This document shows, in pieces, positions 6,016 through 45,916 of a stretch of DNA of 64,000 bases (positions within the stretch are counted from its first letter, which is position 1; every line of letters begins with the position of its first letter). The DNA comes from Octopus vulgaris (taxonomy: Eukaryota). The notes below the pieces were generated by a model, which made no database searches, was not told where the DNA came from, and saw only the letters and a program-made list of their open reading frames with translations. The stretch covers positions 219,852,001-219,916,000 of the forward strand of contig OX597814.1 of the NCBI GenBank assembly GCA_951406725.2. Direction: 5' to 3'. The position numbers and the translations under genes were made by a program.

Positions 6016-8209
6016 TCATGGCAGCGAATGCAGACGACATTGGAATGTTTGTTCTTGGCAAACATGGAGATTACAATTCTTACATGTAGTACGAGTTTTC
6101 CTGTACGTTTTGGGCCGCACAAATAACATCTTCCTTTTTTTCTTTGGCTGAGGAATCTCAAAATGAGGTTGACGTTTGTGTTCTTTTCTTGTTTGGTTGA
6201 GAAATGTTAGCGGAACTAGAAGACTGTTTGTCTTGTTCTTGTTTAGCATTAACTCCAGCAAGTTCCTTTCCTAACTGAATTAGGTTCTCACTTCTTTTAT
6301 CTTTGAAACTTTGCAAGTGAATCTGTTTAGCAACAATGAAAACATTCACTGTACTTATATCAGTCATGTTGTAGAATATAACCATAGGCCATCTTCGAGT
6401 CATTCTTTTGCAAGTGTATGTCCTTACCATCTTATCTAGGGTATCTACTCCTCCTTTTGTTTTGTTGTAACATGTAGTAACTTCAAGTTTCTTTTCAGCA
6501 CTTTTTGAATCAATCGAAGGCTGAGAGTGCATTGTACTCATAAATATGACGACATAATTTTTCTTGGGACAATAAGATAGGATCATAGAATCCTTTCGAA
6601 ATCCAAATATTGTGTTGTTGATTTCTTTTCCATTTGTGGAAGCATTTGGAAGTTCAACTCTGTTCTTTCTAATTGTTCCAACTGAAACAGTTTTCTTGCT
6701 AAGCAGCTCTCGAGCCAATCCTAGACTTGTAAAAAAATTATCACAAGTTATATTGCAACCAATAATTTCAAGTTCTTTTACTAGGTCTCCCCACCCCTTT
6801 ACTGGGTCTTTTCTAGTGTAGATTTGCATTTTCCAGGTATAAGATGTTTCACTATCACAGGTTGCCCAAATTTTAATTCTATATTTCCCTAGTTTTGAAG
6901 GAATATATACCCAGAGTGGGCAATGTCCTCTGAATGAAACTAATTGTTCATCAACTGTCATGCATGAACTTGGAGCATATCCATCTTGCAAATTATGATT
7001 CCACATTTCAAATACTTCTCTTATGGACTCCAATTTATCATCACTTCTCTTTTTTCTTCTTGCACTAGCATCCTCAAAACGCAATACTTGTAAAATCTGT
7101 TGAAATCTTCCCCAGCTCATAATTTTGTTGAATATTGGGCGGCCATCTTCTTGACTCCATAACTGTGTGACATTTTCATGTTTAGATTTATAAAAACCAA
7201 TAAGAATGATCAGTCCAATAAATTTCTTTAGCTCAGAGTGATCAATTTCCTAAACAACCTGACCTTCAACATTTGTCCATTTACGAATTACTTCAAGAAG
7301 ATTCCGGCGCATAAAGATAGTAAAACACGCTTCAATGCTATCGCAAAACCTTTTAGCAAAATGGGATGGTCCACATTCTTGGTGCACAGTATTCCAAGAT
7401 GAAGTTCTTACTGCTGCTTGAGTAAGAGGATTAGAATGCCAAACATCTTGTCTGTCTCTAGAAACATATTGCTCATTCATAATTGTGTTTATCTTCGTCT
7501 GATGACACAGAACCCAAACTGTCCAGCATGCAACCACTTTCACCATTATTTTCAGAGCAATGGAAGGAATCACTAACCTCTTCACTTTCTTCATCGAATT
7601 TTAATAACCTTTTCGATATTTGGTCTTCACGCAAGTTTTCACGTCTAGGCATATTGGAAAGCACCACTGAACTATATGAAACTTGATAGCAGACTAAAGG
7701 CAGATATTGCTCTCCCACATAGTTATACTCTCCTGAAAGTTGATGCATTATATTGTAAGAACTATTTCATCACATAGAAATATTGCATCACCCTATAACC
7801 TAGCAGATTGAAGGTGATGCAATACTACACAAATTTACAGGAATGTTTTCATAATTTTCCCTATTTTCTCTGAAATTCAGCAAATAGATTGAATACAATT
7901 TTATCTATTTTATATCCGATAAATAGCTAGGAAAATAATATTTTATACTGCTTTTATTCTGTTTAGAATGACAAGAGTATTGTCTGAATCTAATTCGAGA
8001 GTCCAATGGACCCCTACGGTAATTAATGTAGAAAGTGAAATTTTCTAACTTTTATAATCATATGGAAAATTTCCCATTTGACAAATAAAAAAAAGAGTCG
8101 AGAAAAAAATAAGTATCACAAGAAATCAGCAGAATCAAATAATATAAACAGTAGGAAAAAGCAACTGAAAACCTGAAATGGGTCCATTGAACCCATTTCA
8201 GAAGGTTAA
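6016..8209 (-). pseudogene. Degenerate piggyBac transposon (PGBD4-like transposase)
   Basis: ORF 6158-7120 has TVDEQLVSFRG, ITCDNFFTS, YNKTKGGVDTLD and RWPM motifs; C-terminal C..C..HVC..H in the 6016 ORF; 5' end TTAA|CCTTCTGAAATGGG near 8205 with a subterminal palindrome at 8173-8201. Confidence 0.88.
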
Positions 8210-9365: not shown

Positions 9366-11897
9366 CTAACCATCCAGCTCCCAACAGTTGTTTTCTATGT
9401 ATGGAACTTCACTGGAAATGGAGTCCCAAAAACCTGACAAAGAGAAGACGTCTGTTATTACGAAATCGCTTTCATTTTCGATACTTGATGTTTCAATTGT
9501 AGGGGCAGGGATTGTAAAGCAATCATTAACCTCTTTATTAGAGTTAAATGTTGAACTATCGTTCATAACACAAAACGGTTCATAATAACGATTGCTGTTA
9601 CTGACGAGGTCGAAATTATCATTTCTGTCATATATCAAAGATGACTGTATGATGTTAGGCAATTCAGAATCCTCATTTGCTTGTAATATTTCAAAACCAT
9701 CGCTATCAATACTGTTTAATATATTAAACGAATGGTTTGGCAATGTATGAATTTTAATAAAACAGTTGTCTGATGATAATGATGTAGCAGCATAAGGACT
9801 GGAATTTCTGATATGATGCTTGCAGTTAATGCATTCTGTATAACCTTTAAGGAAATCAATCGAACCATCAGATTTATAGTGAATATAATTATACGTATGA
9901 TTATCTGCATTGTTTTTCTCATTCAATTGGCAATCATTGCTGCAAGTTTTGTGGCAGGTTTTCAGTTTCTTTTTGCAAGGTTTTGTTGAAACAGTTTTCA
10001 GCGTTCTCGTTGCCTCTTTGGAATTCCTTGTTCGATGACGTCTGCATTCTGTAGAATTTTTATACGTTTTGCTAGTGTCTGTCTTGGAAGCTGAAAAAGT
10101 AGCTTGGCATATTTTGTGTCGAGAAACATTACGAACGTTCAATAATTTCTCATTCAGACTTTTTATCTTTTCATGTTTTACGTTATCAAACACTTCATCT
10201 GTCGGAATATTTTTATCAGAGAGATTTTGATCTTTTGATAAAATCCGAGTTCTTGACACACCGTGTAAATTTCTATGTTCTAACGCATTTAAATTATTCC
10301 TACGGTTTATCGGTTTCTTTGTTTTTGCTTTATTCCTTTGCACACCGTCTACGTTTTCGGCAAGTAATTTGCTTGGACAAGAAAAACGATTATTTTGTTT
10401 AGGGATGTCACTTACTTTTTTCCTGTATTTGGATTTTGATTTCTTGTCTTTTCCTTGTGCAACCATCTTTTTATCTGCTGTTGTCGATTTTTGCAAGGCC
10501 TTGTAATTTCTCTCCACTAGTTTCTTTGAAACTGGTTTTGCCGTTTTAGTCCATAAATCGGGTAGAGCACTTTTCACTTGCTGAACACCACAAGAGTAGA
10601 TGTTCTTTACAGGACTCTCTTTAAATAATTGCGTAACTTTAACGGATTTTGATTCTTCCAGATAGTGTGACGGACATATATTTCGTACTGGTGATATCGA
10701 TTCAAAACTACATCCGCTCTCCGGGTGTGCTTTTCCATTTAATTCCGGTATTTTGTTACATCTGAAGTCTGTATGAAAACATTGCTTCGTCTCTTTCAGA
10801 GAATTAATTTTTTCCCTGGTGTTGTAAGATTCACTCATTGTTTCATCCTTGTCGCGTTTTGACTGACTTTCAATATTTAAAGATTCCTGATCGATATTTT
10901 CATCAGGTTGATTAAGAAATTGAGCGTGTTGAAATGATCTCACCTCGTCTTGGGAAATCAAATTTGTTCCATTGCTTGCAACGGATAGCTTCATATCTAC
11001 TTCCAAAGAACCGACAGGTTTATTCATTCTGTCTAAAGCGTTTGCATCAAACGGAACAGTATATGCAATGCTACAGTTTGGCAACTGCAAATTATACAGA
11101 TTAAATGAATCACCCGAATTAAATTCTTTATTTAAAATGCTATTTGGAATATCTGTCATTGGTATTGGATTCGTAGAACCACAAGTTTCGCCTATTTCTG
11201 TCGAATTATCATTAACTCTCTCTGATTTGGACAAGTTTAGTGGCAGAGAATTTGGTTCATGCAAGATATTTTCAAAATTTCTTTCGTTGAGGAACGAGTC
11301 TCTTTTGGTTAATTCTTTATCGTGAGAATAAACATTCGAATTATAAGATACTGTGTTACGATCATCACAAATTAACAATTGCTCGGCCTGCAGTGGAATA
11401 CCTTTTTCGTTTAGACTACAGGTGTATCTGAATTCAGAAGGAATCTCATTATTCCTCATAGAATAAAAATCCCATCCACTTGGTTTTGAATCATTATGAG
11501 AAAATATCACTGAAGAACTTGTTGGGCATAATTCATTCAAATGGGATTCTTTCATAAGAGGCACAGAATCTTTAACCTCCAAATCTCCAGATTGCTCATA
11601 AGAAATATGAACTTGACTGGATGTCTGAGTGTCTTGAACAGACGGGTAGCCAGTAATTAAAGGGACGGGGTCCACTAAAAACATAGCGAACTTGTTATTG
11701 GCAACTGCTTCATTTGGAAAACTCAGATTAATTCCTTGCGGAAAAGAGTTAAAAACATAACTGTTCGGTATTATATTCAACATATCACAGGAATTAGAAT
11801 CAGTCCCAATATGTTCTAAGTTTTTAGTATAATAATCAAAGAGAACTTGTCGATCATCAACCATATTTAAATTGTTGGTAACAAAACTTACACTCAT
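9366..11897 (-). CDS. Large coding exon of an unidentified host gene (Ser/Asn/Lys-rich, probably disordered, with basic NLS-like patches)
   Basis: Uninterrupted non-repetitive ORF of over 840 codons in AT-rich DNA; acceptor-like TTTTACTATTTTTCAG immediately before ATGAGT at 11897; possible donor GTTAGA at 9370 or stop TAG at 9366. No domain recognised. Confidence 0.8.
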   Translation of the reverse strand: MSVSFVTNNLNMVDDRQVLFDYYTKNLEHIGTDSNSCDMLNIIPNSYVFNSFPQGINLSFPNEAVANNKFAMFLVDPVPLITGYPSVQDTQTSSQVHISYEQSGDLEVKDSVPLMKESHLNELCPTSSSVIFSHNDSKPSGWDFYSMRNNEIPSEFRYTCSLNEKGIPLQAEQLLICDDRNTVSYNSNVYSHDKELTKRDSFLNERNFENILHEPNSLPLNLSKSERVNDNSTEIGETCGSTNPIPMTDIPNSILNKEFNSGDSFNLYNLQLPNCSIAYTVPFDANALDRMNKPVGSLEVDMKLSVASNGTNLISQDEVRSFQHAQFLNQPDENIDQESLNIESQSKRDKDETMSESYNTREKINSLKETKQCFHTDFRCNKIPELNGKAHPESGCSFESISPVRNICPSHYLEESKSVKVTQLFKESPVKNIYSCGVQQVKSALPDLWTKTAKPVSKKLVERNYKALQKSTTADKKMVAQGKDKKSKSKYRKKVSDIPKQNNRFSCPSKLLAENVDGVQRNKAKTKKPINRRNNLNALEHRNLHGVSRTRILSKDQNLSDKNIPTDEVFDNVKHEKIKSLNEKLLNVRNVSRHKICQATFSASKTDTSKTYKNSTECRRHRTRNSKEATRTLKTVSTKPCKKKLKTCHKTCSNDCQLNEKNNADNHTYNYIHYKSDGSIDFLKGYTECINCKHHIRNSSPYAATSLSSDNCFIKIHTLPNHSFNILNSIDSDGFEILQANEDSELPNIIQSSLIYDRNDNFDLVSNSNRYYEPFCVMNDSSTFNSNKEVNDCFTIPAPTIETSSIENESDFVITDVFSLSGFWDSISSEVPYIENNCWELDG

Positions 11898-13064
11898 CTG
11901 AAAAATAGTAAAACGTTTAAAAATTAATTTTTTTAAATTACAAATCATTCAAATGCTTTTCTTTATTCTTCAGATTTAAGTATACCAACAACCAGAAATT
12001 TGTCGGACATACACGATTAAACAGCAGTATTTTACTCCTATTTCATTTTTGTCAAAAGAATAAGTGTAAAGACGACCCCGGTGAAGTAGGAACTTAGAAA
12101 GCAAAGAGCCAGAATAAATATAGCAAAGCGTTTTGTCTAAATCTCAATATAGCACAGCTTACCGTTTTAAATAACACAGCTTATATAATTCGACTATTAA
12201 AAAGACTGGAATATCCTTGATCCCAAGATTTATTCGACTAGGATTGACCTGAAGAGAAGTAAAAAGAAAAATAGAACTAGTAAAATTCTTCGAAGACATT
12301 TAACTTGAAGGTAGAAAATATAAAACTCAGTTATAGCTTATTCTGAAACAGCATTGATTTGCTCCAAGTCTGCTCAGATAAACAGACCCATGGCATGCTG
12401 CCCAATCACTCAAACATCTAGGTATGGATCACAAAAGAATCGATTTCCCACCGTTCGACCGGTGTTCCAGGTGCATCTACTCCACCTTATAAAAAATCTG
12501 TGAATCATAAACATTTACATTACGGAGTAATAAAAGTAGCAGCAACCTATAACATATGTAAGAGCGTAAATTCAATTTCTTTAAATAGCAGCGAATTTCG
12601 AAAATTCTTTATAGTAGTCACGTAACTATTGGGATTTGAACTATAAGTTAATTCGTCATGTATCGTGTTAAAAAATAATACCGTAAAATGTATATTACTT
12701 GTCGACTAACTAAAATGTTTCTTGCAACTGAAGTTCAATTCCTGATTGTAGTTATTTCGCTTACCAAATACTCTTAGGAAAGACAAGAATATAACCACCT
12801 ATTTTTCCCCTTCGAAATCCATTGGGCTGAACCATACATCTATGCATGATATGAATGGAAAATTGTTTCTCCTAACGCAAAAGTTACGGTAAAAAGTGAA
12901 AAAAAAAAATTATTTTTGTTGAAGTGTAAGTAACTATAAAATAGTTTCGGGTTAATGGTTTCAAAGAAAATTTAGAAATACATCCAAAATTTCTGATGAA
13001 TCGTGAAATAGTCTGAGTTAGATTTAGCTGGTGTCGAGTATTATTGGTGTATCATTTTACACTG

Positions 13065-19244: not shown

Positions 19245-19663
19245 CTCGTATATCTCCGTTCAGAGATGTCTAGTAAATATATTTTTGAACGAAAATATAC
19301 GTTCACTGTACTCTGAGATGTTTGTAACTTATTTCTAACCCGAAATACTTCGTTTATGGTGTTATTCCCGTTTTCTATCATTAACTACAAAGGGCACAAA
19401 AAAAAAGAAGAAAAACCTTTTTTGTCTGCTACCCGGACAAATGGTGCTGTACTAAACTAAATCGAGTACGCTGATTCCAAATCTGAACTCAAAATTACTG
19501 TAACACGTCAGGATTTTGAGTTAGGCGCATAATTATATATTAATACTACATTAGTATCGGGAATGGTTAAGTTCAAGGTAAAAAATTATCATAATAGTAT
19601 ACTAGTACTGTATATAGTATATTTATGTTCAAGGCAAATATTATTATAATATAATGGTACATA

Positions 19664-19695
19664 GTAGGAGTGGCTGTGTGGTAAGTAGCTTGCTT
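19664..19695 (+). mobile_element. Orphaned 5' head of a family B SINE (target of the downstream insertions)
   Basis: GTAGGAGTGGCTGTGTGGTAAGTAGCTTGCTT closely matches the heads of uninterrupted copies (reverse complement of 29638-29672 and 36845-36872). Confidence 0.85.
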
Positions 19696-21555
19696 CCGCA
19701 CATGCGCGTCAGGTCGACTTCTTGCCAGTGAACAGTGAGGACGTGAGCTTTGAGCTCCGTCCTAGAAAGAAAAAAGAACAAAAACAGAGAAGGTTGTCGA
19801 GGCAAGTGATTTTGTTTTATCTGAGTTGGGTGTAATTTGTTATATTGTAATTTTTTGTTAACAAATTTCGCCCATTGCTGGGACAATTTCGCCTGCTCTC
19901 GGAGGCTGCTGTTTTGTGAATTTAGTGTGAATTTTTTGGATTCATTTTAAAAAACAGTGGAGGGGTGTATCCTCGGCCGAATGATTAGAACCTGTTACAG
20001 TTGCTGTTGCAGTTACCGTTGGCTGTGACCAGTTTTGTGTTTGGATTTATTGGAGTTCTTTTACCAATTACGGGAAAAAACGATTCATACCAAGGAACCT
20101 ATATGCATTTGACCGGGAATACCTGTGGGCCAGGAAATTGGAGTTTTGCTGAGTGAATTGTTTTCCTTTTTTCCGTCTACCCTTCCTGTTTTGTTTTAAC
20201 TGTTTAATTATTTTTTGGACTTTATTATATTTTTTACTGTTTCTGTTAACTTTTGTGTACCAGTTTTGGACTTATTCTGTGACCTTTGAACTTTCTTTGA
20301 ACTTTCAAGACTTTCTTTTTTGCACATGGCAAAAATAAACGGTGTCGCTGCTTTGGAGTGGGAGGTGGTCCCACCCAAACAGTGGATTAAAGATCTTGAG
20401 AAGAGGACGGTGGTGCTACGGACCTATTCTAGGTCGCGTGGTGCCATCACCCTCTTCGACAAGAGCATAATAGAGAGAGAGAGTTGGCAGACTACCTGCC
20501 AACTATAAAATTTATTTCACGGGGGACCAAATTTGCAACGGTCTGGTTGCTGTTTGGTACCCCCGAGGAAGCTGGCAAATTTGCCAGCGAGCCCCTTGAG
20601 GGGAATGAAATTTTGTTCTCCCCCACGTATTGTGGGAGGAAGATAAGAAGAGCCTGGGTATGCGGGCTGCCCCCGGGCACGGAGGCGGGATGGATCGAAG
20701 ATACCATCCGGCGAGGCCTGGGGGATAGCGGGCCCAGGCTATTGAGGGTGGACGTTGCTCCTGCGGTTGACTGGGAGGGGTCAAAGGCAACTTTGACCCT
20801 GTGGACCCCGGTGGCCATAGGAGATATGACATTCCCAGACTTCCTAAATATGGCCGGGTACAGGTACCTGTGCCTGGAGCCTGGCCATATCAGGAAAAAC
20901 TGTACCAAGGACCGTGGTAAGGCCCTGCAGCATGAAAAGGAGAAAGTGCCCGCCGCCTCTTCATTGGAGGGGGAGACGGTGGAAGTTGCCTCCACGAAAA
21001 GAAAAAGAAAGGTGAGCAACAATGGTTGCTCACCAAAGAATGTTCAGGCGGCGGAGGAGGGTAGCGACCCCCGCGTCTGTCGACGCAGCCCCCTGCTCCC
21101 GCAGCCTCAAAAAGAAAGAGGAAAAAGAGGAGTAGAGGACGGTCGGTGGATGTTCCTGGGCCGCAGGTGGGATAGGGCTCCGTCAGTGGGAAGTGTGCCA
21201 CTGACGGAGCAGTGTGAGGTCCCTTCCTGTGAAGAGGAGGTGTTTGTCCTCTTTTACCACGAGGGAGGGACGGTGAGTAAACTTTTGGATGGCTTGGGTG
21301 GCCGAGAACGTGTGTACTCGGTCTGCCCAAGAAGTCCGATATGGCCTCCGCAGGTGGCTGCGGAGGTAGTAACGGAAAACATTTTGTCAAAGGTCACAGC
21401 AACCTTTGACAAGAAAGAATTTGCTTTCCTCTTTGCAGGCTCCGACTTGTCGTTGCAGAGTTGTCTGCAGGCGGCAAGTCACTTTGCTTGGGGGACCTGA
21501 CAAGGAGAATTGTTGTAAATCTATGTGCTGCCCTAGTGGCAAATTAAATGAAATA
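19696..21555 (+). mobile_element. ORF1-only non-LTR retroelement, subfamily 1 (copy 1)
   Basis: About 630-nt T-rich 5' UTR; ORF1 20326-21500 (MAKING..WEVVPPKQWIKDL, frameshift at an AG run, broken knuckle LCLEPGHIRKNC); short 3' UTR ending GGCAAATTAAATGAAATAAA; no ORF2; flanked by AAGTAGCTTG. Confidence 0.8.
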
Positions 21556-21565
21556 AAGTAGCTTG

Positions 21566-21777
21566 TAAGAGGTTTTAGTGCCTCCTTCTTGTAAGAGATT
21601 TGAAACCTCATTGATTTTTAAAAAAGAAAATATGTTTTCGAGAAAAATCCAATCGGCGGGTGTTGGGTTTCGTCTCTCATTTATTCATTCAATTTCATTT
21701 TCATTCATTAATGTGTTTGTCCAGCCCGCAAAGCTACACAATCGTTGTACTGTCTATATGACAAATTTTATGAAACA
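21566..21777 (+). mobile_element. 5'-truncated 3'-UTR-only copy of the same retroelement family
   Basis: Aligns by eye with the 3' UTR of the 34318-36346 copy (GTAAGAGG..CTTGTAAG, ATGTTTTCGAGAA..CAATCGG); ends GACAAATTTTATGAAACAAAG; flanked by target repeats. Confidence 0.7.
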
Positions 21778-21790
21778 AAGTAGCTTGCTT

Positions 21791-23247
21791 CCGGTTACCC
21801 ATAGTGCATTTAGTTTGTCGTTTGTGTGCGAGTCGGACGTCGGTTTTGTTGCTACGGTAAGACAATGTACTCAGACCTTAGTGGGTCTGAGTTGTCTTCA
21901 GAGGAGGAGCTCGTAAGGGCGGCCATAGCGATGGACAGTATGCTAGAAAAGACCAGGAGTTTTGCAGAGGTCACGGAGAAGAAACGAAGGGAGTTGGACT
22001 TGGCTGGTCTGAAAAATTATGACAAGATGTTACAGAAGGTGGGAGGGGACGTAAGGCTGTCGCCCCCCAAAGGAATTATGGAGAAGATGGAAAGGAAAAC
22101 TATCACCTATAATATGTTCTCTTTAAAAGGAAAAAAGGCTGAGCAGGTGGAAGCGGATACAGAAAAGGCGCCAAGAGAGAAGTCTAAAGAGATTACATAT
22201 ATCACGAAAGGAAAAGATATGGCACCATGGTCGTCCAATTTAGGACAGCTGAAGAGGCAATGAGGCTGGCGAGTGTGGCGGTGAAAACGGAGGAGGTAGT
22301 GCTTCTGCCCACATACCTGGGAAGAAAAACTTCTAAGGTGAGGGTAGAAGCAATTCCACCGGATGTAGAAGTCGCTTGGGTAGCGGCAGCTGTCCTTGTT
22401 GGAAGCGAGGAGGAGGTGGCTGTCCTCCAAGCCACAGAAAGAGAAGAAGGAGGGTGGAAAGGAATGACGCTCGAGTTAATTTTTCAGACGGAGGAGGGAC
22501 AACTCGAGAACTTGGCAAAGACTGTGACGCTGGGGAAATCGTGCTGAGGGTGTGGGTAGAGGGCAGAGTACCACGTTGTTTTAAATGTGGCCAAACGGGC
22601 CACATTAGAGCATACTGTCCTCTACGAAGGACTATGGTTGAGGATATAGTTGCGGAGACAGAAGAGAAAAGAGAGGAAGACAAAATAGACGGAGGAAACG
22701 ATAAAAAGGAGGAAGAATGGAAAGTTGCAGAGCGCAAAAGGAGAAAGAGGAAAAAAAAGAAAAGACACTGAGTATGATGTGGCACCCCAGTCCAACCCCA
22801 TCCCACCCAAGACCACTCAGACCCACCCTCCCCATACAGACATCAAACCCACCCACCCCATTTCCCCTCAAGAAAAAAAGAAAAAGAAAGAAAATACACC
22901 ACAAAATTTAGAAGAACCCCCCTCCCGGTGAAAAAGGTTATGAATGCATGACGGAAAGAATGTTATCTTTAAGTGACAGGGAAAAGGGAAAAAAGGATTG
23001 GACGAAAAGAGAAAAAGGACTCAGGACCCAGAGACAGCGAGTGGTGTTACTCAGTGTGGGGTGAGTAGCACACTCTTCATAATATCATTTTCAGATATCA
23101 TTCATATTATCATATTTTAATTTATTCTTCATGTGCATTTTCATGTTCATTCATTATATCATATTCTATTCCTTAATTGTTATATGTCCCCACATGTGTT
23201 GTAGTGTCCCCTCTGTGTATTGCCTTTATGGCAAATTTAATAAAATA
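21791..23247 (+). mobile_element. ORF1-only non-LTR retroelement, subfamily 2
   Basis: Frameshifted ORF1 21865-22931 with V.V.F.T.EEA, LLPTYLGR..KVRV..IPP and intact CCHC knuckle CFKCGQTGHIRAYC; AT-rich 3' UTR ending GGCAAATTTAATAAAATAAA; no ORF2. Confidence 0.8.
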
Positions 23248-23260
23248 AAGTGGCTTGCTT

Positions 23261-24606
23261 ACGCGCATGCGTGTTTGTTCGTTGCTTATTGGATTGAACA
23301 CTGTCAAGACCGTTGGTGGCCGTCTTGAATCGAAGAACTGTTGAAGAGGCGCGACTGCAAGGTAGGCACTTGCTTTTTTTTTGTTTTAGGGATTCGGTGG
23401 GGATTTTGTTGCTTGACAATGTTTTTCTTTTTTCAAATAAGAAAGTCTTCATTGGGTCTCGAACATTTGTCGGCTGCAGCCACGCTCAAGTAACTCACTT
23501 ACCGGTGCGAATTGTTTTGTTCTGGTGAGCGTGTCTCACTACCAAAATTTGAAAAGTTTATAAAAATTCGACCCATCCGTGGAAGAATGTGGTTTTTTTT
23601 TGTTTTGGTGAGCGTGTCTCACTACCAAAATTTGAAAAGTTTATAAAAATTCGACCCATCCGTGGAAGAATGTGGTTTTTTTTTTTTTTTTTTGCTACAA
23701 TGAACTGGAGTACCAGTGTGAAGCAATATTCTGGAGGATTACCTGTGGACCCGGATTATCTAAGTGGTGGAATTGTGTTGCCGTGCTGGAACTGTTTTCC
23801 TTCGTTCTTTTCTCTGCTCTGTCTTTTTGTTCTTTCTTTGTGTTTCTTTGGACTTTTATTTGAATATTTTGAACTTTTTTCTTGAACATTTTCCTGTTTT
23901 TGTTTTTTTAAAAAGCATGGCAAAAAATAAAAACACTGTCTTTGAGGGGGAAATTGTGCCTCCCAGGCAGTGGGTAAAGGACCTTAATGAGAGAGCGGTG
24001 GTGTTGAGGACATATTCCAAGTCCCTCGACACCATCACTGTGTTCTCTCAAGTACATATTGAGAAGGAGTTGGCAGAATACCTGCCAACCATCAAGTTTA
24101 TTGCAAGGGGTGTCAAATAGGCAACTGTACTTCTTACCGGGCTGTTTGGTTCGTACAATATTGTGGAGAGGGAAATGTTTAGTTCCTTTTTGATGACTTC
24201 CAGTCCACATTATGAAGGTTTCTTGATTTACATTTTTGGCGGGGTATTGAAAAGCTGTGGGCTTTTGAACCCTAAGTTATAGCAGTACTTAGTCCCGATT
24301 TTAGATAGAGTGGGCGGTACCTTTTGGGGAAAAAATGGCGTCCAGTTCGGAAATTTATATAACACTCTATGCCGAAATTAGGTACTAGCTCTTCCAGAAT
24401 TTTCCATTTATAGATTTTTACATATCTGTCCGCCTTCGCTCCAAGGAATGAAGTCATAGTTTTTTCGGCCTCTTCCTGTTGTACATCTGCTACACTCTCT
24501 CAATTTTTTTAGTGTAGTGAGGTTGGACTTTTTCAAGCTTCATTGATACAAGTTATCTGCATGTGGTTGCTATTTGATACCCCTGAGGAGGCTCGCATTT
24601 TTGCAA
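23261..24606 (+). mobile_element. Subfamily 1 retroelement (copy 2), interrupted and 3'-truncated
   Basis: ORF1 from 23917 (MAKNKN..GEIVPPRQWVKDLNERAVVLRTYSKS) is homologous to copy 1; resumes WLLFDTPEEAR near 24564 after an inserted segment; ~80-bp tandem duplication in the 5' UTR (23523-23690). Confidence 0.75.
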
Positions 24607-24609
24607 TTT

Positions 24610-25800
24610 ACTAAATGATACACAGCATGGCTTCCGCCCTGGAAGAAGCTGCCTCACATAACTCTTACAGCACTATGACTGGGTTTTGAAACAGCTGCTT
24701 GACCATTCAGATATCAATATGATATATCTTAACTTTGGAAAGGTACATCGTTGTATGATGTGTCAGAATCTGCGAGACATTGGCACAGCTGGTAAACTGG
24801 GAGAGTAGCTGCATGACTTCCTAAATGATAAAAGCCAGGCAGTTGCAGCCAACGGCACTCTCTCAGAGGAAACCCGCAGGGAACTGTCTTGGGGACCATT
24901 ACTATTTATATTCGCTCTCTTAGATATACCCATGATCACTCAGACAACCACTGTCACTAACTATGCTGATGACACAAAATTATAACAGACAAAAGAGAAC
25001 TCAAACGATGTCACAAGTTTACAGCGGGACTATATGCAATATACAAGTAGGCTGAAGATAATAACATAAAGTTTAATGCTGGAAAATTTCAAGCATTGCG
25101 CTATCAGCTCATAAATGCAGCCTGCATATACAGGACCCAAATGGACTGCAATCCCAGAGTCACAGACAGTGAAAGATTTAGGTATCAGTATGTATAATGG
25201 TGCATTATTTCATATGCACGTTACTAACATGGCAGTAACATGAGATAACTGGCAGGATGAATACTAAGATCCTTCAAGACCAAGATGCCATGTTCATCCG
25301 GTGGAAGACCCTTTGTTCTCAGCCGCCTGAACTATTGCTCTCAGCTGTGGTCACACATAGTGCCAAACTAACAGTGAAGCTTGAAAAAGTCCAACCTTAC
25401 GACACTAAAAAAATTGAGAGAGTGTAGCAGATGTACAACAGGAAGAGGCCGAAAAAACTATGACTTCATTCCTTGGAGCGAAGGCGGACAGATATGTAAA
25501 AATCTATATATGGAAAATTCTGGAAGAGCTAGTACCTAATTTCGGCATAGAGTGTTATATAAATTTCCGAACTGGACGCCATTTTTTCCCCAAAAGGTAC
25601 CGCCCACTCTATCTAAAATCGGGATTAAGTACTGCTATAACTTAGGGTTCAAAAGCCCACAGCTTTTCAATACCCCGCCAAAAATGTAAATCAAGAAACC
25701 TTCATAATGTGGACTGGAAGTCATCAAAAAGGAACTAAACATTTCCCTCTCCACAATATTGTAAGAAGTACAGATGTGGGAACAGAGTCAAACTACCTTA
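24610..25800 (+). pseudogene. Degenerate CR1-like LINE reverse transcriptase region
   Basis: PQGTVLGPLLF and NYADDTKL motifs at about 24875-24980, KDLGI, L.YCSQLWS; many stops. Confidence 0.8.
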
Positions 25801-28425: not shown

Positions 28426-29249
28426 ATGTTTCGTCACTGGATAATAAATTTATTTTTTATTTGAATAAAAATAAAGTTAATACAAATAAGCCTCTTTTTG
28501 AACAGTTGAATTTTATTTCAATGGGAAAATAATGTTCCTTCTGTTAGAAAATTTGGAAAAGCCCGGAAATCAAACAATGTGTCTGTAGGGCTAGTAAGAG
28601 TTGATAAGTAAAAAAGTGAATCTTTGCTAAACAAGCGGTTTATATTAACAGTGGTAGAAACAATTACAGTAGCGATGGAAGCAAAGATGGAAAACAGTGT
28701 GTCTGTGGGCTTGCAGTTGCAGTGGTTAGAGTGAATTATTGTCAAGCAGGCGAACGACAGCTTTTGATTTAGACGTAGCCTTAATCAGTTATATAGGCAG
28801 CAGCTGCTCTGCCTCAGACATGTGAACAGTACTTTAATACGGGTCACACCCAGGCTCCGTAGAGGGTCATCAGTTGTCTCGAACTGAAATGTTTTCTGAC
28901 ACTAAGATATCTAGCTGTACAGTTTTTAGCATGCTTACAGATTTGTCGTCGCCTTAAAATATTGCAAGAGCTGGTGAGCTCTAGTATTTGTAATGAGTTT
29001 GTAAATTTTAGTTGTGTTCTTCAATAGGGATGGTAAGGCTTGACAATGATTTTCTTTGATGAATAATGACTGTTTCCCGCTCATGAGTAACAAAATACAA
29101 CGTTTCGTTTTCGACATTTAAAAATGTATTGATAATATCTAATAATGATAATTTTCTGAAAAAACAGCACAAGGCCAACTATTTTTGGGTTGGTGATGTG
29201 GGAGGGAGGAACAAATTGATACTTACGACCCATGTATTTAACAGGTACT

Positions 29250-29447
29250 CTCTTTTACTCTTTTACTTGTTTCAGTCATTTGACTGCGGCCATGCTGGAG
29301 CACCACCTTTAGTCGAGCAACTCGACCCCGGGACTTATTCTTTTGTAAGCCCAGTACTTATTCTATCGGTCTCTTTTGTCGAACCGCTAATGAACGGGGA
29401 CATAAACACACCAACATCGGTTGTCAAGCAATGCTAGGGGGACAAAC

Positions 29448-29500
<53 letters not shown>

Positions 29501-29670
29501 CATATATACGACAGGCTTCTTTCAGTTTCCGTCTACCAAATCCACCCACAAGGCATTGGTCGGCCCGGGGCTATAGCAGAAGACACTTGCCCAAGATGCC
29601 ACGCAGTGGGACTGAACCCGGAACCATGTGGTTGGTTAGCAAGCTACTTACCACACAGCCACTGCTGCGC
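29250..29670 (-). mobile_element. Complete, uninterrupted family B SINE
   Basis: Head GGCGCAGCAGTGGCTGTGTGGTAAGTAGCTTGCTAACCAACC, B box GGTTCAGTCCC, central (TA)/(TG) tract and family tail. Confidence 0.88.
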
Positions 29671-30770
29671 CTAATAATAATAATTTTCTGAAAAAAAGCC
29701 CAAGGCCAACTATTTTTGGGTTGGTGATGTGGGAGGGAGGAACAAATTGATACTTACGACCCATGTATTTAACAGGTACTTTATATTATCTATTGCATAA
29801 TTGGGACTCAGAACACAAAGAGCCGGAGAAGTACCGCAAGGCATTTAGTCCGACTCTGTAACGATTCCGCCAGCTCAGTATCATATAATGATGATTGTGA
29901 TATCTTAATTCGAACTATGGATTATTTCTTAACCCTAGTTATTTTTCTTTATGCAGTTTGTGGAAGGAGTTTGATTTTGAGCTACAAATATCAACCCTTC
30001 CGTTACCTTCTTCAAAACGCCTTTTTATAGCCACTTCGCAGATCCTTCAATACTTCTTATTTTTTCTCTGTCTATCTAACGTTTTGTTTCTCCACAATTT
30101 TCTTTCCCTCCTCATTTTTTTCATATCATCACTTATGGTTTACATACAGGCCTTCATCTATTAATTTCTCATTGATTGTGCTAATATACGCGACTAGATT
30201 GTCTTCCTCACTCTCAACATATTCAGTTATGCTTTGTTGATCTCTGCCTCTTTCTTTCTCGGGGACATATATGAACTTTATATCACCCTGGGAGTGGTTA
30301 TAAACCAGTTCATCGTTTAGTTTTTTCTTGTTTTCCTGTCCATTTTCTTTTCTTTTTTTAGCAACTTTCCTTTATATCTTCTTACTATACATGTACTGTA
30401 CCTTACAAGTAACATTGCCCATGAATTTATAACTATCATAGTGTTGTCTCCATTGGCTTTTTAGTATGTCTGTAGCATTCTTTTCGGCTGATATATTTCA
30501 TGTCGTTATGAAGTATTTTATCTACTTCCCAGATAAAGAGGTATTTGTATGCTTTCATTCAACTCAATCACCTTGATAACTTCTCTGGAGGTCAACACCA
30601 ATCTACCTCTCCTTGATACTTTCCCCACTTTTCAGTTTCAGATGACAATATCTCTTCAGTCTAAATTCTATTTTTTTGTTTCTTTTTTTTTTATATTTGC
30701 AGTCTAGCATCGAAGCAATCGTCTAATGCTTTCTCCCCAAAATTGTGGAACTTGTGGCATAATTTGAAAC

Positions 30771-33649: not shown

Positions 33650-33950
33650 AGGCGCATGGCTCGGTGTTTAGGGCGTCGGACTCAAAATCATGAGTTTGTG
33701 TGTTCGATTTTTTGTTGTGTTTGTTGTGTTCTTGAGCAAGACACTTTATTTCACGTTGCTCCAGTTCACTCAGCTGTAGAAATGAGTTACGATGTCATAG
33801 GTGCCAAGCTGTATCGGCCCCTTTGCCTTTCCCTTGGATAACATCAGTAGCGTGGTGGGCGGAGACTGGTATGCATGGACGACTGCTGGTCTTCCATAAA
33901 CAACCTTGCTCGGACTTGTGCCTCGGAGGGGAACTTTCTAGGTGCAATCC
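33650..33950 (+). mobile_element. tRNA-derived SINE family C (CORE-like middle)
   Basis: GGCGCATGGCTC head and TTGAGCAAGACACTTTATTTCAC..CTCCAGTTCACTCAGCTGTAGAAATGAG; second copy at 56008-56313 (-). Confidence 0.75.
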
Positions 33951-33954
33951 TATT

Positions 33955-36385
33955 CTGTTACACTTACTTGTTTCAGTTATTTGACTGTGGCCATGCTGGA
34001 GCACCGCCTTTAGTCGAACAAATCGACCCTAGGACTTATTCTTTGTAAGCCTAGTACTTATTCTATCGTTCACTTTAGCCGGACCGTTAAGTTAGGGGCA
34101 CGTAAACACACCAGCATCGGTTGTCAAGCGATGGTGGGGAGACAAACACAGACACACACACACACACATGCATATACAACGGACTTCTTTCAGTTTCCGT
34201 CTACCAAATCCACTCACAAGGCTTTGATCGGCCCGAGGCTATAGCAGAAGACATTTGTCCAAGGTGCCACACAGTGAGACTGAACCCGGAACCATGTGGT
34301 TGGTAAACAAGCTACTTTATTTCATAAAATTGGCTATGCAGCCTTACAAAGATGTAGCTGCGGGTTGGACAAAGACACAAATGATAATGGAATGGAAAAA
34401 ATGGTTGGTGGGGGAAGCAGACAACGCCCACCGATTGCTGCTTCTCGAAAACATTGTTCTCTTTTTCTCAACAACACAAAATGAGGTATTGAACTTCTTA
34501 CCACAGTTCAAAGAATGGACACAATCGTCCTTACAAGATGAGACGCTGAGCCTCTTACCAAAAAATAACAAATTCAAATCGAGGTACTAAGGCCTCTTAC
34601 CTTTCCTCCTCGACCAGGCTATATGCCGCCCGCAGGCAATCCTGCAGTTCTCAGTCGGGGCTCCAAAAAGCAAAACTATATTGGTCCTTGGGAAAGGAGT
34701 CAAGGAGTCCATCACCCTGAACATATCATTCTCCAAGTTACCTGCGGAAGCCAATCCGGGTCTTCAGTCCAGGACAGGATCCCCTCCTCCGTCTCTCTAG
34801 CTTCACAAAGCTCTGTACAGCTCCTTCCTTATGAAAGAAGATCACAAAATCATCCTTCGTTATAATGGGAGTGGCCACAGTTTCCTTCGTCGATGGCACA
34901 ATTCCCACTGATGAGGTTTCAGGACATGCCGGCAGTGTACTACTAACCGCCGATAATGTCCCATTCTTCGTCTTCATTTTTCTCCATTGTGCTACGGGAG
35001 GGTGTAGTTCCTCTGCTTTATCCGGAGGATATTCCCTCCTTCCCGCAGCCTTGAGGTCCTTCGGTAGGCAACCATTGTTTCCCACCTTCTTCCTTTTTTC
35101 CCCTTTTTTCGAGGAGGTCTCCACCTCTTCGATTGCCTCCATGTCTCCCTTTAAAGGAGGGGCAACTACTTTTATTAACTGCTCCAGGACCCTACTTTGG
35201 GCCTGGGGGACAGTTCTTCTTAATATGGCCCAGTTCCAGGCACAGGTGACACTTGGTGGGGAGGGGTGTCCCTTAAGTATCACTGGGTACCTGTAATCGG
35301 CCATTTTCATAAAATCTGGAAATACCAGACCTTTAGCGGCTGATTGGGTCCATAGGGTCAAAACCGCTTTTGACCCCACCCAATCAGCCGCCGGCAACAA
35401 TTTCACAATTAAAAGCTTGGGCCCGCTGCCACCCAGACCCCGGCAGATAGTGTCCTCTATCCATTGCAGTTCAATGCCCGGTGGAAGCCCACAGACCCTA
35501 GCTCTTCATAATTTCTTCCCACAATATATGGGAAGAAACAGAATCTTTTGCCCTTCTTAGGGCTGGCTCGCAAATTTGCGAGCCACCTCAGGGGTGTCAA
35601 ATAGCAACAACACCTTTGCATATCTAACAGCCTTGGAAATAAGCTTAATTAATCTTTTTCTATTTCTGTCTTAGGAAAGACCGCGATGGTGTCGAGTGAC
35701 TTAGAATAAGTCCTCAACACCACAGTTCTTTCCTCTAAGTTTTTTAACCATTGCTTAGGTGGGATAATTTCCCACTCCAACGCAGTGTTCAATTTCTTCG
35801 CCATGCTTTGAGGAAAAAGTTCAGAAAAAAAAAACAAACAACAGAAGTCCAAACAAAGTCAAAAAACATTTCGGAGGAAGACAAAGAAGAGAAAAAGAAA
35901 GAAGGAAGACAGTTCAAATCACGGCAACACACAATTACAGCCAGCCTGTACTCCTGGCCAACAGGTACTCCAAAAGGTATTCCAAAAGTGAACAGGGACA
36001 CAGCAGCAGGAACACAACTTCAAAAAAATCCGCCATAAATAGGTAAAAATTCAGAAAATTTTCCAAATAAATTTCAAAATTTTTGTGGGCGGGATTCGCC
36101 CCCAAAACAACACAATTCTCACAATTAAGTGAGACAGCGCAACTGTAAGCAGACAAATGTCCCGGAATCCAGTGGGTATTTCTTGTTCGAAAAAATAATG
36201 GACATCAAACAAAAAACCCCACTGAATCCCCCAAAACAAACGTCCTACCTTACAGTTGCGTCTTCAAAGTTCTTCAATTCTATACAGCTGCAAAGCAACG
36301 TCTTGACTACACCAGTGCTGTAGTAAACTAACTAACGCATGCGCGTAAGCAAGCTGTTTACCACACAGCCACTCTTGCGCCTATA
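33955..36385 (-). mobile_element. Family B SINE split by a retroelement insertion (head 36347-36385, body 33955-34317)
   Basis: Joining the two halves and removing one 13-bp repeat restores a full SINE like 29250-29670. Confidence 0.85.
34318..36346 (-). mobile_element. ORF1-only non-LTR retroelement, subfamily 1 (copy 3, full length)
   Basis: ORF1 from 35804 (MAKKLNTALEWEIIPPKQWLKNLEERTVVLRTYSKS..DWVGSKAVLTLWT) is homologous to copies 1 and 2; 3' end GCCAATTTTATGAAATAAA; 13-bp imperfect TSD at 36347-36359 and 34305-34317. Confidence 0.85.
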
Positions 36386-36465
36386 CTGTCTTTATATAGA
36401 TTAAATGAGAAGAAATATACATGGTTGCGAGAATTGTTAGATGAATCGTATACATAATGAAATAA

Positions 36466-36673
36466 CTCTTTTACTCTTTTACTCTTTTACTTGTTTCAGT
36501 CATTTGACTGCGGCCATGCTGGAGCACCGCCTTTAGTCGAGCAAATCGACCCCGGGACTTATTCTTTGTAAGCCCAGTACTTATTCTATCGGTCTCTTTT
36601 GCCGAACCGCTAAGTGACGGGGACATAAACACACCAGCATCGGTTGTCAAGCAATGCTAGGGGACAAACACAG

Positions 36674-36706
<33 letters not shown>

Positions 36707-36872
36707 CATATATACGACGGGCTTCTTTCAGTTTCCGTCTACCAAATCCACTCACAAGGCATTGGTCGGTCCGGGGCTATAGCAGAAGACACTTGCCCAA
36801 GATGCCACGCAGTGGGACTGAACCCGGAACCATGTGGTTGGTTAGCAAGCTGCTTACCACACAGCCACTCCT
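36466..36872 (-). mobile_element. Family B SINE, uninterrupted
   Basis: Near-identical to 29250-29670. Confidence 0.88.
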
Positions 36873-36964
36873 CAGTCTTTACTCTTTTTTTTTCTACCGT
36901 TTCTACTAAGTCGCCAAACAAACTGGTATGAAGTTCAGCATAACGATGTAAAAGTCTTATGATG

Positions 36965-40533: not shown

Positions 40534-42720
40534 GTTCTGGATCAGAACTACGACCCCACCTCCCCCTCCGGTTCGACTAGGAGACATGATTTTCTCATAA
40601 CCGTTCAGGAGAGGTGTGAAAGCCTGCAACTAGTCCAACTTGGTCTCTGTAGCAGCCATCACATTTATTCTGTGTGACCTGAGGCCCTCGAGGTAACAAG
40701 CCTGCTTCCTCTTTGACCCCAAGCCAAGCACATTCAAACATCCGATCTTTAATGTAGCCATGTCAGTTGAAGAAGGAAAAAAAACGCTGAGCTTACCTTT
40801 CTCATTTTTCTCGGTTTTATACTAGAGGAGGAAAGTCCTTAGTACCACCCGCACTAACCCCTCCTCCTCCTTCCTCTCATACAGGAATGGTTCTATCCTG
40901 GATTAAAAATTTTCGGCAGGTCCTTCATTTCCACAATGTGTCCTCTATGTCTTTCTTTTCATTCAAGATACAAGCTTTGTGGCAGTTTGGCTACCGTATC
41001 TATGTTTTTAATGTTATTTTTATATATCTTCGTTTGACGATGGGGCTTATAACCTCATCTAAATATTTATTTTGTGTTTTGTATACGACTATCGTAAGAT
41101 CCTCCTTCTTGAATAGTTTTATCGTGCTTAGTCCCATCGTTTCTTTTTTAGGGCTTCCTATAGGTTTTTCCGTAGTTTTTACCATTTTCATTTTTGGAGT
41201 CGCCTCTTGAATCTTTGAAGGCGACGCCATTTTCTGACGGCATTTACGTGTCACCGTTTGGAAGTCCATTTCTTCTTCTGATAGTATCACAGTAGTTTTT
41301 TCTTTTCCTCCGGCATTTCGCTGGTATTAGAGGAGGTGGACACCCGATGTGTAACCGCCTCCTTGGCGGGGGCGTCTGCATCTTCACGGTCACCCCTTTT
41401 GTAATTGCCTCCTTGGCTGGGGGTGCCGTAATATTGATGTTTGCCGATGCCCTCTTCGTAACAGCCTCCTTAGCTAGGGGCGCCGGTGCTCCTTTTTCCT
41501 AGGGGTTTGCCGACGCCTTCTGCGTAACAGCCTCCTTGGCTGGAGGTGCCGGCGTTTCTTTTTCCTTCGAAGAGATGGTGGCTTTCTGTGTAATAGCCTC
41601 CTTGGCTTGGGGTACCATCTCTTCTTTATCTTCCTCATCCTTGTTCTTAGGGCATTTTGACATAATGTGCCCTTTCTTGTCACATTTAAAACATCGTGGT
41701 CTTCTCCCCTCAACATTTACAGGTAATATAGTCCCCTCCCCGATATGAATGGTTTCGGGGAGGTTTTCTAAGACTTCGAATGAAGCCTGGGCCAGAATCT
41801 CCAGAGTTTGACCCCACCAGTTTTGCGTGGCATCCCTGGAAACCTGGATGATATTTATTTTTTCCTCCCTGCCGAAAAGGATGGAGACGGCTATCCACGC
41901 CGCTTCCACCTCTGGAGGAATATTTTAAATTTTCATTCGGACCGTCCTTCTACCTAGATACAGCGACAAAAACAGTATATTTCCACTTTGCACGGTTCGA
42001 GTCGAGAAGTCTCTAGCCTTCTCGGCTTCTATTGTCGCAAACCTTGTGCCTCTGGCCAGGTATTTGATTTCGTTTAACGCCAGCCAGAGGCATTTTTCGA
42101 TTGCTGATTCTTCTAAATGTTCGAATCTTTTTTTTTTTTTCCCAGGATTGAAGACTTTATAAATTATAGTCTTTTCTTTGGTTCTAGTTATCATTTCCCC
42201 AGGCGCCGTCAGTTTGCTTTGTCCTTCGGTTTCTGTAATTAGTCCGAAATACTGTTGTATTTCTTTTTTTTTTTTTATTCAATTTTTTTCCCCTTCGCCT
42301 ACAGCGACGGCAAAATTCAACTTCTTTGGCTGTTCGAACAAAGCCATTTCACAATAATAATAATTTCACAGAAAAATATACGAGAATAGAAAAATAGTCT
42401 TCCGCGAGGAATGCAGTTAAACAAGTTACACAAAAATTTTTCTACACTTCCTCCAAGGGAGAGGACAACAAAAATTATTCACAATAGAATAATAAATCAA
42501 CGTTTCCCTACGGAAACCACAAACAGAAAAACAAATTCCTTTGAAAGATGACACACAGACAGACACTGAGTGAACAGACAGGCAAGAGTGATTTCTTTAT
42601 TTGCCTATTCAAGACAAACGTAGAGAGGACAAACAATGACAGACTAGACACCACAAGTGGGGACAAAAACATAAACAGGTGAATGAAAGATGACGATGAC
42701 GATGAAATGTCCACTCGGCC
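40534..42720 (-). mobile_element. L1/Tx1-like LINE 5' portion: 5' UTR, ORF1 (CCHC) and start of the ORF2 APE endonuclease
   Basis: ORF1 from about 42347 with YLARGTRFATIE, LYLGRR, VEGRRPRCFKCDKKGHIMSKC; ORF2 ATG at 40761 reads MATLKIGCLNVLGLGSKRKQACYLEGLRSHRINVMAATETKL then GGGVVVLI (APE N-terminal motifs). Confidence 0.8.
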
Positions 42721-45184: not shown

Positions 45185-45241
45185 TGTCGTACTACACTGG
45201 TATCATTACATTTTTAACGTGCTTTACTCATATTTAAGTAT

Positions 45242-45628
45242 ACTCTCTTACTTGTTTCAGTCATTTGACTGCGGCCATGCTGGAGCACCGCCTTTAGCCG
45301 AGCAAATCAACTCCGGTACTTATTCTTTGTAAGCCCAGTACTTATTCTATTGGTCTCTTATGCCGAACCGCTAAGTGACGGGGACGTAAACACACCAGCA
45401 TCAGTTGTCAAGCAATGCTTGGGGGACAAACACACTCACACATATATATATATATATACATACATATATACGACGGGCTTCTTTCAGTTTCCGTCTACCA
45501 AATCCACTCACAAGGCATTGGTCGGCCCGGGGCTATAGCAGAAGACACTTGCCCAAGATGCCACGCAGTGGGACTGAACCCGGAACCATGTGGTTGGTTA
45601 GCAAGCTACTTACCACACAGCCACTCCT
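45242..45628 (-). mobile_element. Family B SINE, uninterrupted
   Basis: Matches 29250-29670; older plus-strand relatives follow at about 45760-46400. Confidence 0.85.
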
Positions 45629-45916
45629 GGTTGACAGTATGTGTGCACTTCGATATTTTATTTGAGGGGGGGGCATATAAAAAACCATATGCACACATGC
45701 AGACTACATCCTTCCCCTCCCTCTTTGTCTGCCCATCCACTTGAGTAGGTATAAACGCATACAGGACCATGTGCTTAAGAAATTTGCTTCCTAACCACAT
45801 AGCTTTGGGTTGAATTCTGCTGCATGGCACCTTGAACAAGTCTCTTCTGCTATAGCCTCGGGCCAACAAAAGCCTTGTGAGTCAATTTGGTAGACGGAAA
45901 CTGAAAGAAGCCCGTC

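What the first reader, a model, noticed from the sequence alone, without database searches (positions are those of the whole stretch)
33955..36385. Independent insertion splits a complete SINE at the same nucleotide, showing the TSD and empty site
Seen on the minus strand: SINE head ...GTGGTAAACAGCTTGCTT, then the 2.03-kb element, then ...ATGAAATA-AAGTAGCTTGTTT-ACCAACCACATGGTTCCGGGTTCAG, where the SINE resumes. Uninterrupted copies (29250, 36466, 45242) read GGTAAG(T/C)AGCTTGCTAACCAACC, giving the empty site. This is a second locus, in opposite orientation on the chromosome but the same orientation relative to the SINE. The site lies between the Pol III A and B boxes, so insertion should disable the SINE promoter (inference).
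Basis: seen in the sequence. Interest (0 to 1): 0.88.

Follow-up and report, generated by a model that had tools for sequence, protein, structure and literature searches.

The report
Half-LINE rebuilds its SINE landing site
This is an old, broken copy of a jumping gene that carries only an RNA-packaging protein, likely borrows the cutting and copying enzyme of a full-length relative, sits like most of its kin at one fixed base inside a very common short repeat, and likely brings along its own copy of part of the landing site, which would let later copies stack at the same spot.

Summary
Confirmed. A 2.03-kb element (36350-34318, minus strand) splits a SINE between its A and B boxes, at the same base as the locus at 19.7 kb. 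The two elements are 74% alike and share no colinear flank. The element holds only a decayed ORF1 (predicted two RRMs plus CCHC) and no ORF2. Targeting is genome-wide: 69 of 70 loci picked by element tail land on this base, as do 20 of 32 insertions of the focal subfamily. Near-identical elements sit in SINEs only about 86-89% alike, which argues against duplication or hitch-hiking. A full ORF1+ORF2 LINE of the L1/Tx1 group uses the same site and tail and is the likely helper. One correction: the apparent 13-15-bp TSD is composite. In 38 of 38 typed full-length copies, positions 10-15 of the 5' copy follow the element subfamily, not the target. The target-derived duplication is about 9-10 bp, and the element's own 5' end restores the rest. 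SINE promoter loss, the helper and the Tx1 label are inferred. This scan found the same system before at other loci of this genome.

The parts
36360..36382 (-). SINE head left upstream of the insertion, with the A-box-like TGGCTGTGTGG at 36371-36361
   Evidence: matches intact window SINEs
36351..36359 (-). 5' copy of the target-derived duplication (about 9 bp, AAACAGCTT; 2 differences from the 3' copy)
   Evidence: length inferred from 37 full-length pairs elsewhere
36345..36350 (-). First bases of the element (GCTTAC), which mimic target positions 10-15 and complete the apparent 15-bp repeat
   Evidence: inferred; the C-versus-T difference at position 11 recurs in L078 and L122 of the same subfamily
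34318..36350 (-). 2.03-kb ORF1-only non-LTR element, full length, old (78-85% to most scored genomic relatives)
34597..35804 (-). Decayed ORF1: at least 3 stops and 2 frameshifts; about 49% identical to an intact 414-aa ORF1 of a young relative (L252)
   Evidence: stop position read
34318..34343 (-). 3' tail: small hairpin (GGCTGCATAGCC) plus AT-rich TGAAATA end, shared with the autonomous LINE
34303..34317 (-). 3' copy = the original target (AAGTAGCTTGTTTAC); core duplication 34317-34309
33955..34302 (-). Remainder of the SINE, with the B-box-like GGTTCAGTCTC starting at 34286
   Evidence: 85% to the intact copy at 36466 over 385 bases
19660..24600 (+). Sister locus: SINE head followed by three ORF1-only elements head to tail, each junction carrying the target motif; the third is interrupted by other repeats
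36466..36872 (-). Intact SINE 80 bases upstream, used as empty-site reference (others at 29250-29666 and 45241-45629)

Best explanation
The stretch is a decayed full-length copy of an ORF1-only non-LTR retrotransposon that sits at one fixed base of a SINE head and was likely copied in by target-primed reverse transcription using the ORF2 enzyme of a full-length L1/Tx1-group LINE that sits at the same base. Shown: the element's structure, same-base targeting, independence from the host SINE, the shared tail and ORF1 with the autonomous LINE, and purifying selection on ORF1 between subfamilies. Inferred: (1) the LINE endonuclease nicks the bottom strand at TT|A in CTACTT|ACC by reading DNA sequence; (2) ORF2 grips the shared 3' hairpin tail in trans; (3) full-length RNAs begin with 5-6 target-like bases that join, or anneal to, the cut top strand, so positions 10-15 of the 5' repeat copy come from the element; (4) this restores a full site behind an intact head, so later copies stack; (5) the host SINE loses its Pol III promoter.
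For: Targeting: 29 of 30 and 40 of 40 loci picked by element tail only, 70 of 641 hits; 20 of 32 events for the focal subfamily; 10 of 10 focal-type 5' ends follow the motif. The 12 off-target sites read A(A/T)GTA: A 11/12, G 10/12, T 9/12, A 10/12. Independence: 21 close pairs average 97.5% in the element against 89.4% in the host SINE, lower in 19 of 21; L252/L253 99.6% against 85.9%. Helper: L061-L063 carry ORF1 (CCHC) plus endonuclease, RT and zf-RVT inside the same site; their ORF1 matches ORF1-only proteins at 23-30%, best E 2e-22; the best PDB hits are L1 ORF2p. No ORF2 trace in three window elements (best E 2.0). ORF1 dN/dS is 0.09-0.25 between subfamilies. Composite repeat: mismatches 5 of 333 at positions 1-9 against 53 of 222 at positions 10-15; the 5' copy reads CTAAC in 26 of 26 copies of one group (12 against a different target) and CTTACC in 12 of 12 of another, 10 of them lacking G10.
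Against: 12 of 32 focal-subfamily events lie outside the SINE, so for this older subfamily it is a strong preference, not strict specificity. For the focal copy itself, element and SINE-flank identities overlap (last 400 nt mostly 86-92%, two outliers 67% and 80%, against 79-91%), so its independence rests on the family. The autonomous copies fetched are frameshifted in ORF2, and their ORF1 is only distantly related to the focal one (direct tblastn E 0.024), so the actual helper of this subfamily is not identified. L271 has the same TTCC variant on both sides, which fits a plain 15-bp TSD. Truncated copies show exact TSDs of 0-17 bp, 4 of 12 at 15, so the top-strand cut is not fixed at +9. The hairpin is only 4 bp, 72% of cells paired, and register-shifted in the focal subfamily. 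Pairs and mismatch cells are not independent, and one pairing (L257) is doubtful.
Confidence: 0.8

Rival explanations
1. Tethered targeting: the ORF1/ORF2 particle is brought to SINE heads by Pol III factors (TFIIIC/TFIIIB), as for Dictyostelium TRE5-A, and the motif is only the local nick preference.
For: The site lies between the A and B boxes. TRE5-A.2 is an ORF1-only element targeted via ORF1-TFIIIB contact (PMC3159450, passages). ORF1 is kept under selection in the non-autonomous families.
Against: Insertion is at one base, not in a distance window. Hosts include decayed SINEs (86% to reference), junctions between stacked elements, and a motif with no SINE head (L003). Off-target sites share the sequence motif. 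0 junctions lie before a canonical tRNA B box (low power).
Confidence: 0.1
2. Composite hitch-hiking: head, element and SINE body move as one unit using the SINE's tail, so same-base junctions are inherited rather than re-made.
For: All full-length copies have the same orientation and nearly always the same head. Some 5'-truncated focal-type copies keep the SINE body but show no head. Some close pairs also have close SINEs (L184/L208: 98.7% and 98.5%).
Against: Near-identical elements sit in divergent SINEs. Inserts truncated to 36-206 nt sit behind an intact head with TSDs. Off-SINE copies have their own TSD (L011, L081). Unrelated element families share the site.
Confidence: 0.05
3. Plain 13-15-bp TSD: both repeat copies derive from the target, and their differences are later mutations.
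For: 4 of 12 truncated insertions show exactly 15 bp. L271 shares a variant on both sides. The focal copy is old enough for 3 of 15 differences.
Against: In young copies mostly 90-99% alike, the 5' copy keeps the subfamily's bases against 16 differing targets (12 + 4), and 10 copies lack the same G. Recurrent mutation cannot give this.
Confidence: 0.07
4. The two window loci descend from one segmental duplication.
For: They lie 15 kb apart and share SINE head, element family and one 99-base repeat.
Against: Elements are 74% identical, with no colinear flank. One locus is a three-element array, the other a single copy in a complete SINE.
Confidence: 0.01

Closest known systems
Target-specific Tx1-clade LINEs: Tx1 in Tx1D, Keno in U2, Kibi/Koshi in microsatellites, Tx1-Mar in Mariner-N4_AMi (Kojima 2015, PMC4494074; matched passages and section 16 read; supplements not seen)
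   Same: Two-ORF LINE with APE endonuclease that inserts into another multicopy repeat and likely mobilises non-autonomous passengers with the same preference.
   Different: The target is one base in a SINE head. The passages read name DNA transposons, LTR elements, snRNA genes and microsatellites as targets, not SINEs. The passengers here encode ORF1. Tx1 membership was not tested on a tree with named references.
ORF1-present non-autonomous LINEs: HAL1, HeT-A, Ag-Sponge (Kojima 2018, PMC5786205, passage read; the HAL1 paper itself was not held)
   Same: 5' UTR, ORF1 and 3' tail without ORF2; ORF1 maintained by selection.
   Different: Here several deeply diverged ORF1-only lineages share one sequence-defined site in a SINE and form mixed stacks.
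R1 and R2 rDNA elements of Drosophila (Stage and Eickbush 2009, PMC2718515, passages read; R2Ol, PMC6795142, passages)
   Same: Fixed bottom-strand site; tandem arrays separated by the TSD through re-insertion at the 5' TSD; 5' junctions shaped by annealing of target-like element ends.
   Different: Those are autonomous and target 28S genes. Here a dispersed SINE with more than 63,000 exact sites is the target, and subfamily-specific 5' bases overwrite the distal repeat.
Dictyostelium TRE5-A.2 (PMC3159450, passages read)
   Same: ORF1-only, mobilised in trans, needs a 3' RNA module, associated with Pol III promoters.
   Different: TRE5-A inserts about 50 bp upstream of tRNA genes by protein tethering; this element inserts inside the promoter region at one base.

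Membership tests
ORF1-present non-autonomous LINE (HAL1-like) | ORF1 homologous to that of an autonomous LINE | tested here: met
   ORF1-only proteins match L061 ORF1 at 23-30%, best E 2e-22; tblastx focal versus L063 E 5e-8
ORF1-present non-autonomous LINE (HAL1-like) | No ORF2 in full-length copies | tested here: met
   tblastn with both ORF2 pieces against three window elements, best E 2.0; full-length inserts with both ends are 1.4-2.3 kb
ORF1-present non-autonomous LINE (HAL1-like) | Spread as its own family with ORF1 under purifying selection | tested here: met
   40 loci scored; dN/dS 0.09-0.25 for six pairs over residues 1-180, 0.40 for one closer pair; 0.82 and 1.48 for two pairs within the old subfamily
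ORF1-present non-autonomous LINE (HAL1-like) | TPRT hallmarks: 5' truncation, constant 3' end, TSDs | tested here: met
ORF1-present non-autonomous LINE (HAL1-like) | Mobilisation in trans by the partner ORF2 | not testable with these tools
   inferred from the shared tail and site
Tx1 clade (helper LINE) | ORF2 with APE endonuclease, RT and C-terminal zinc finger; ORF1 with CCHC | tested here: met
   Pfam PF03372, PF00078, PF13966, PF00098
Tx1 clade (helper LINE) | RT phylogeny places it in Tx1 rather than L1 | tested here: inconclusive
   PDB hits are L1 ORF2p only, with no R1-clade endonucleases; homologs carried no clade names; no tree was built; the Tx1 label is recalled
Sequence-specific LINE (criterion of Kojima 2015: more than 20% of flanks in one repeat) | Flanks dominated by one repeat | tested here: met
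   69 of 70 and 20 of 32
Sequence-specific LINE | Endonuclease cleaves the target in vitro | not testable with these tools
   only the off-target consensus A(A/T)GTA
tRNA-derived SINE (host) | Head with A and B boxes traceable to a tRNA | tested here: inconclusive
   A- and B-like boxes 43 bases apart; no Rfam tRNA hit at E<=10; no clear parent among 30 genomic tRNA loci of 6 amino-acid types at the match

The most novel reading that the evidence does not exclude
A guild of LINE parasites (one autonomous L1/Tx1-group lineage and several ORF1-only lineages) uses a SINE as a self-renewing, genome-wide target array. Each lineage carries a heritable 5-6-base target mimic at its 5' end that overwrites the distal part of the duplication, so every full-length insertion rebuilds a standard landing site behind the SINE head while silencing the SINE it lands in.
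Probability: 0.55. Interest if true: 0.68.

Novelty: new variant of a known kind. Interest (0 to 1): 0.52.

Why it matters
Site-specific LINEs are known from rDNA, snRNA genes, microsatellites and DNA transposons. A SINE head as a single-base target, shared by autonomous and ORF1-only lineages, was not found in the papers searched (Repbase and subscription journals not searchable; Kojima 2015 supplements not seen). Because the target is a polymorphic dispersed repeat, hundreds of natural insertions show which junction bases come from target and which from element. That makes the open question of second-strand priming in APE-type LINEs directly testable from genomes. A small endonuclease domain with an extended DNA preference would also be of interest for targeted insertion work. 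The focal copy itself is a dead fossil.

Tried and rejected
The 5' anchor ACGCGCATGCG proved mostly chance. Of 60 regions fetched, 4 had element homology, all 4 behind the target motif; one more (L130) had the motif but no protein match. The 5'-junction pattern gave 46 hits; of 40 fetched, 18 were an uninterrupted SINE variant and 22 element insertions (counted by eye). Orthologous empty allele: contigs of coded runs laid on the focal locus and on L252 were flooded by SINE copies and stopped at the repeat; no verdict. No RNA holder listed. Rfam found no ribozyme or tRNA in 33900-36950. L204, first taken as a private target variant on both sides, is uninformative because of a 5-base microhomology. 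A 10-base stretch after the junction in L255/L258, first read as a decayed target, is part of the 5' UTR. The microhomology measure failed for 8 of 12 truncated copies, and L011 was not found by that script. The claim in earlier notes that the SINE carries the LINE's tail was not confirmed: no blastn match between the window SINE and the L061 3' UTR, only a loose likeness of the last 15 bases by eye. The ORF1 model is low in confidence overall (mean pLDDT 51; about 55-85 over residues 21-200); the wide VIA-align search did not run.

Full report
Observation. On the minus strand the SINE head (36382-36360) is followed by AAACAGCTTGCTTAC, a 2.03-kb insert ending TTTTATGAAATA at 34318, then AAGTAGCTTGTTTAC and the rest of the SINE to about 33955. 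Intact window copies at 29250, 36466 and 45241 show the motif once. One 31-base empty-site pattern has 63,742 exact matches in G000, with 0 for the reversed control. The A-box-like and B-box-like motifs are 43 bases apart in an intact copy and 2085 apart here. The genome looks octopus-like (SINE recalled from memory, and earlier notes); I did not try to identify the record.

The sister locus is independent. At 19683 (+) the same base carries three ORF1-only elements head to tail, each junction showing the motif. The focal element and the first of these are 73.7% identical, and 2 kb of upstream flank share only a 68% SINE at a different distance.

What the insert is. It has a 5' UTR, an ORF1 from 35804 broken by at least three stops and two frameshifts, and a tail of about 280 bases. 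An intact 414-aa ORF1 from a young relative (L252) is about 49% identical. Its model (mean pLDDT 51, better over residues 21-200) matches tandem-RRM proteins, and the Atlas returns CCHC and ZCCHC3-type RNA-binding clusters at 0.88-0.92. ORF2 pieces find nothing in the three window elements (best E 2.0). Between ORF1-only subfamilies dN/dS is 0.09-0.25 in six pairs. Within the old focal subfamily two pairs give 0.82 and 1.48, consistent with decay after insertion. The family is dispersed: 40 of 2730 candidates were scored, many 5'-truncated with a constant 3' end.

Targeting is genome-wide. An element-only tail pattern has 641 exact hits. Of 70 examined, 69 continue into the SINE at the same base: 29 of the first 30 and 40 of 40 that I chose by tail variant, not by flank. 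For the focal subfamily, 30 distinct 3' flanks were caught, 18 on the motif and 12 elsewhere. One entry covers three loci, giving 20 of 32 events; two of the 20 are followed by another element, and L007, L009 and L020 were missed by the pattern. The 12 off-target flanks read A(A/T)GTA, pointing to a sequence-reading nick at TT|A on the bottom strand (inference). All 10 focal-type 5' ends found follow the motif. Tail plus SINE B box occurs 589 times, tail plus canonical tRNA B box 0 times. With SINE sites far outnumbering any parent tRNA, this test is weak.

Not hitch-hiking. Among 46 junction loci with a full SINE flank (of 57), 21 pairs with at least 93% element identity average 97.5% in the element and 89.4% in the host SINE, lower in 19 of 21; unrelated pairs average 86.5% (pairs are not independent). 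L252 and L253 are 99.6% alike over 2228 bases in SINEs 85.9% alike. Inserts as short as 36 bases sit behind an intact head with a TSD. For the focal copy alone the comparison does not discriminate.

Likely helper. Among the first 30 of 283 tail-plus-SINE junctions, several had ORF2 ends upstream. L061-L063 are 5.4-kb elements with ORF1 (CCHC), endonuclease, RT and zf-RVT between SINE head and body. L061 and L062 are 98.9% alike in SINEs 95.6% and 85.5% alike. Their ORF1 is homologous to the ORF1-only proteins (23-30%), and they share the tail, including a 4-bp hairpin with some compensatory change. For that hairpin 72% of cells are paired and 1 of 500 shuffles reached the covariation score; the focal subfamily pairs in a shifted register; 42 of 44 tails were aligned. 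PDB sequence hits are L1 ORF2p. The Tx1 label is recalled and was not tested by a tree, since the homologs carried no clade names.

The 'TSD' is composite. Of 52 tail-selected loci, 44 had a 5' junction in the fetched DNA, 40 were longer than 1400 bases, and 3 with a one-base shift were set aside. In the remaining 37 pairs, mismatches between the two repeat copies were 5 of 333 at positions 1-9 and 53 of 222 at positions 10-15. The cells are not independent, the search pattern covered positions 1-6, and L257 is a doubtful pairing. Across the 40, the 5' copy tracks the element's 5' UTR type. It reads CTAAC in 26 of 26 of one group, 12 of them against a different target. It reads CTTACC in 12 of 12 of another, 4 against a TAAC target and 10 lacking the same G. 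The autonomous L061/L062 behave alike. In the focal subfamily the C-versus-T difference at position 11 recurs in L001, L078 and L122; L271 is a counter-example. Truncated copies have exact TSDs of 0, 6, 7, 8, 10, 10, 10, 15, 15, 15, 15 and 17 bases. So either the top strand is cut near +9/10 and joined to the element's first bases, or it is cut near +15 and the cDNA end anneals and overwrites the overhang. My data do not separate these. Either way a full site is rebuilt behind the head, which would explain stacking, as proposed for R1 arrays (PMC2718515, passages). An attempt to see an empty allele in public contigs gave no verdict.

Comparison and verdict. It works like Tx1-Mar with its passengers (PMC4494074), has the build of HAL1/HeT-A/Ag-Sponge (PMC5786205) and TRE5-A.2 (PMC3159450), and has R1/R2-like junctions. 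A SINE as single-base target was not found in four searches. A 2026 octopus repeat annotation lists 13 recently active L1-Tx1 families, with no occurrence of 'target' or 'nested' in its main text (PMC13282606, passages). Earlier notes of this scan describe the same system at other loci. I saw only their summaries; these mention rebuilding of the site but give no position-wise test. New variant of a known kind; interest 0.52.

Noticed in passing
window 21540-21790 (+); L216, L221: The first element of the sister array has two 3' ends: an internal tail plus target remnant, followed by about 220 bases of a sibling family's tail. The same chimera recurs in L216 and L221, so stacking at the site can create new subfamilies by tail capture.
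   Followed up: partly
window 29139-29257 and 29671-29788: The intact SINE at 29250-29666 is flanked by a 119-bp direct repeat (95%), an unusually long TSD; long TSDs are recalled as typical of RTE-type mobilisation.
   Followed up: no
L067:7470-7900: A 5'-truncated tail of the autonomous LINE is flanked by a duplication of about 108 bases of the SINE starting at the target base.
   Followed up: no
window 41499-41924 (-): Another CCHC ORF1-like remnant, closer to the autonomous ORF1 (35-46% in tblastx), with no target motif found at its ends.
   Followed up: partly
L080, L089, L070, L024, L190, L195, L304-L308: Certain older tail variants land mainly in the AAGAAG...TTCC SINE subfamily, which suggests that element lineages track SINE subfamily waves.
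   Followed up: no
L001, L002/L270, L012/L181, L075: 5' repeat copies of the focal subfamily share C at position 4 (3 of 10) and C at position 9 (3 of 10). C4 is in 0 of the first 100 empty sites listed. The element-supplied part may reach further upstream in this subfamily.
   Followed up: partly
L255, L276, L279, L280, L310: Several young copies combine the 5' UTR of one subfamily with the tail of another, suggesting recombination or template switching among ORF1-only lineages.
   Followed up: no
window 6158-7249 (-): A 363-aa frame that looks like a piggyBac transposase remnant (recalled motifs; not searched).
   Followed up: no
window 9366-11948 (-): An 860-aa open frame of unknown kind, probably a large host exon.
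   Followed up: no
window 63429-63553 and 63871-63995: A 125-bp perfect inverted repeat pair, possibly a young MITE.
   Followed up: no
window 24150-24548 and 25369-25767: A 399-bp inverted duplication (98%) of a LINE-like fragment interrupts the third element of the sister array.
   Followed up: no
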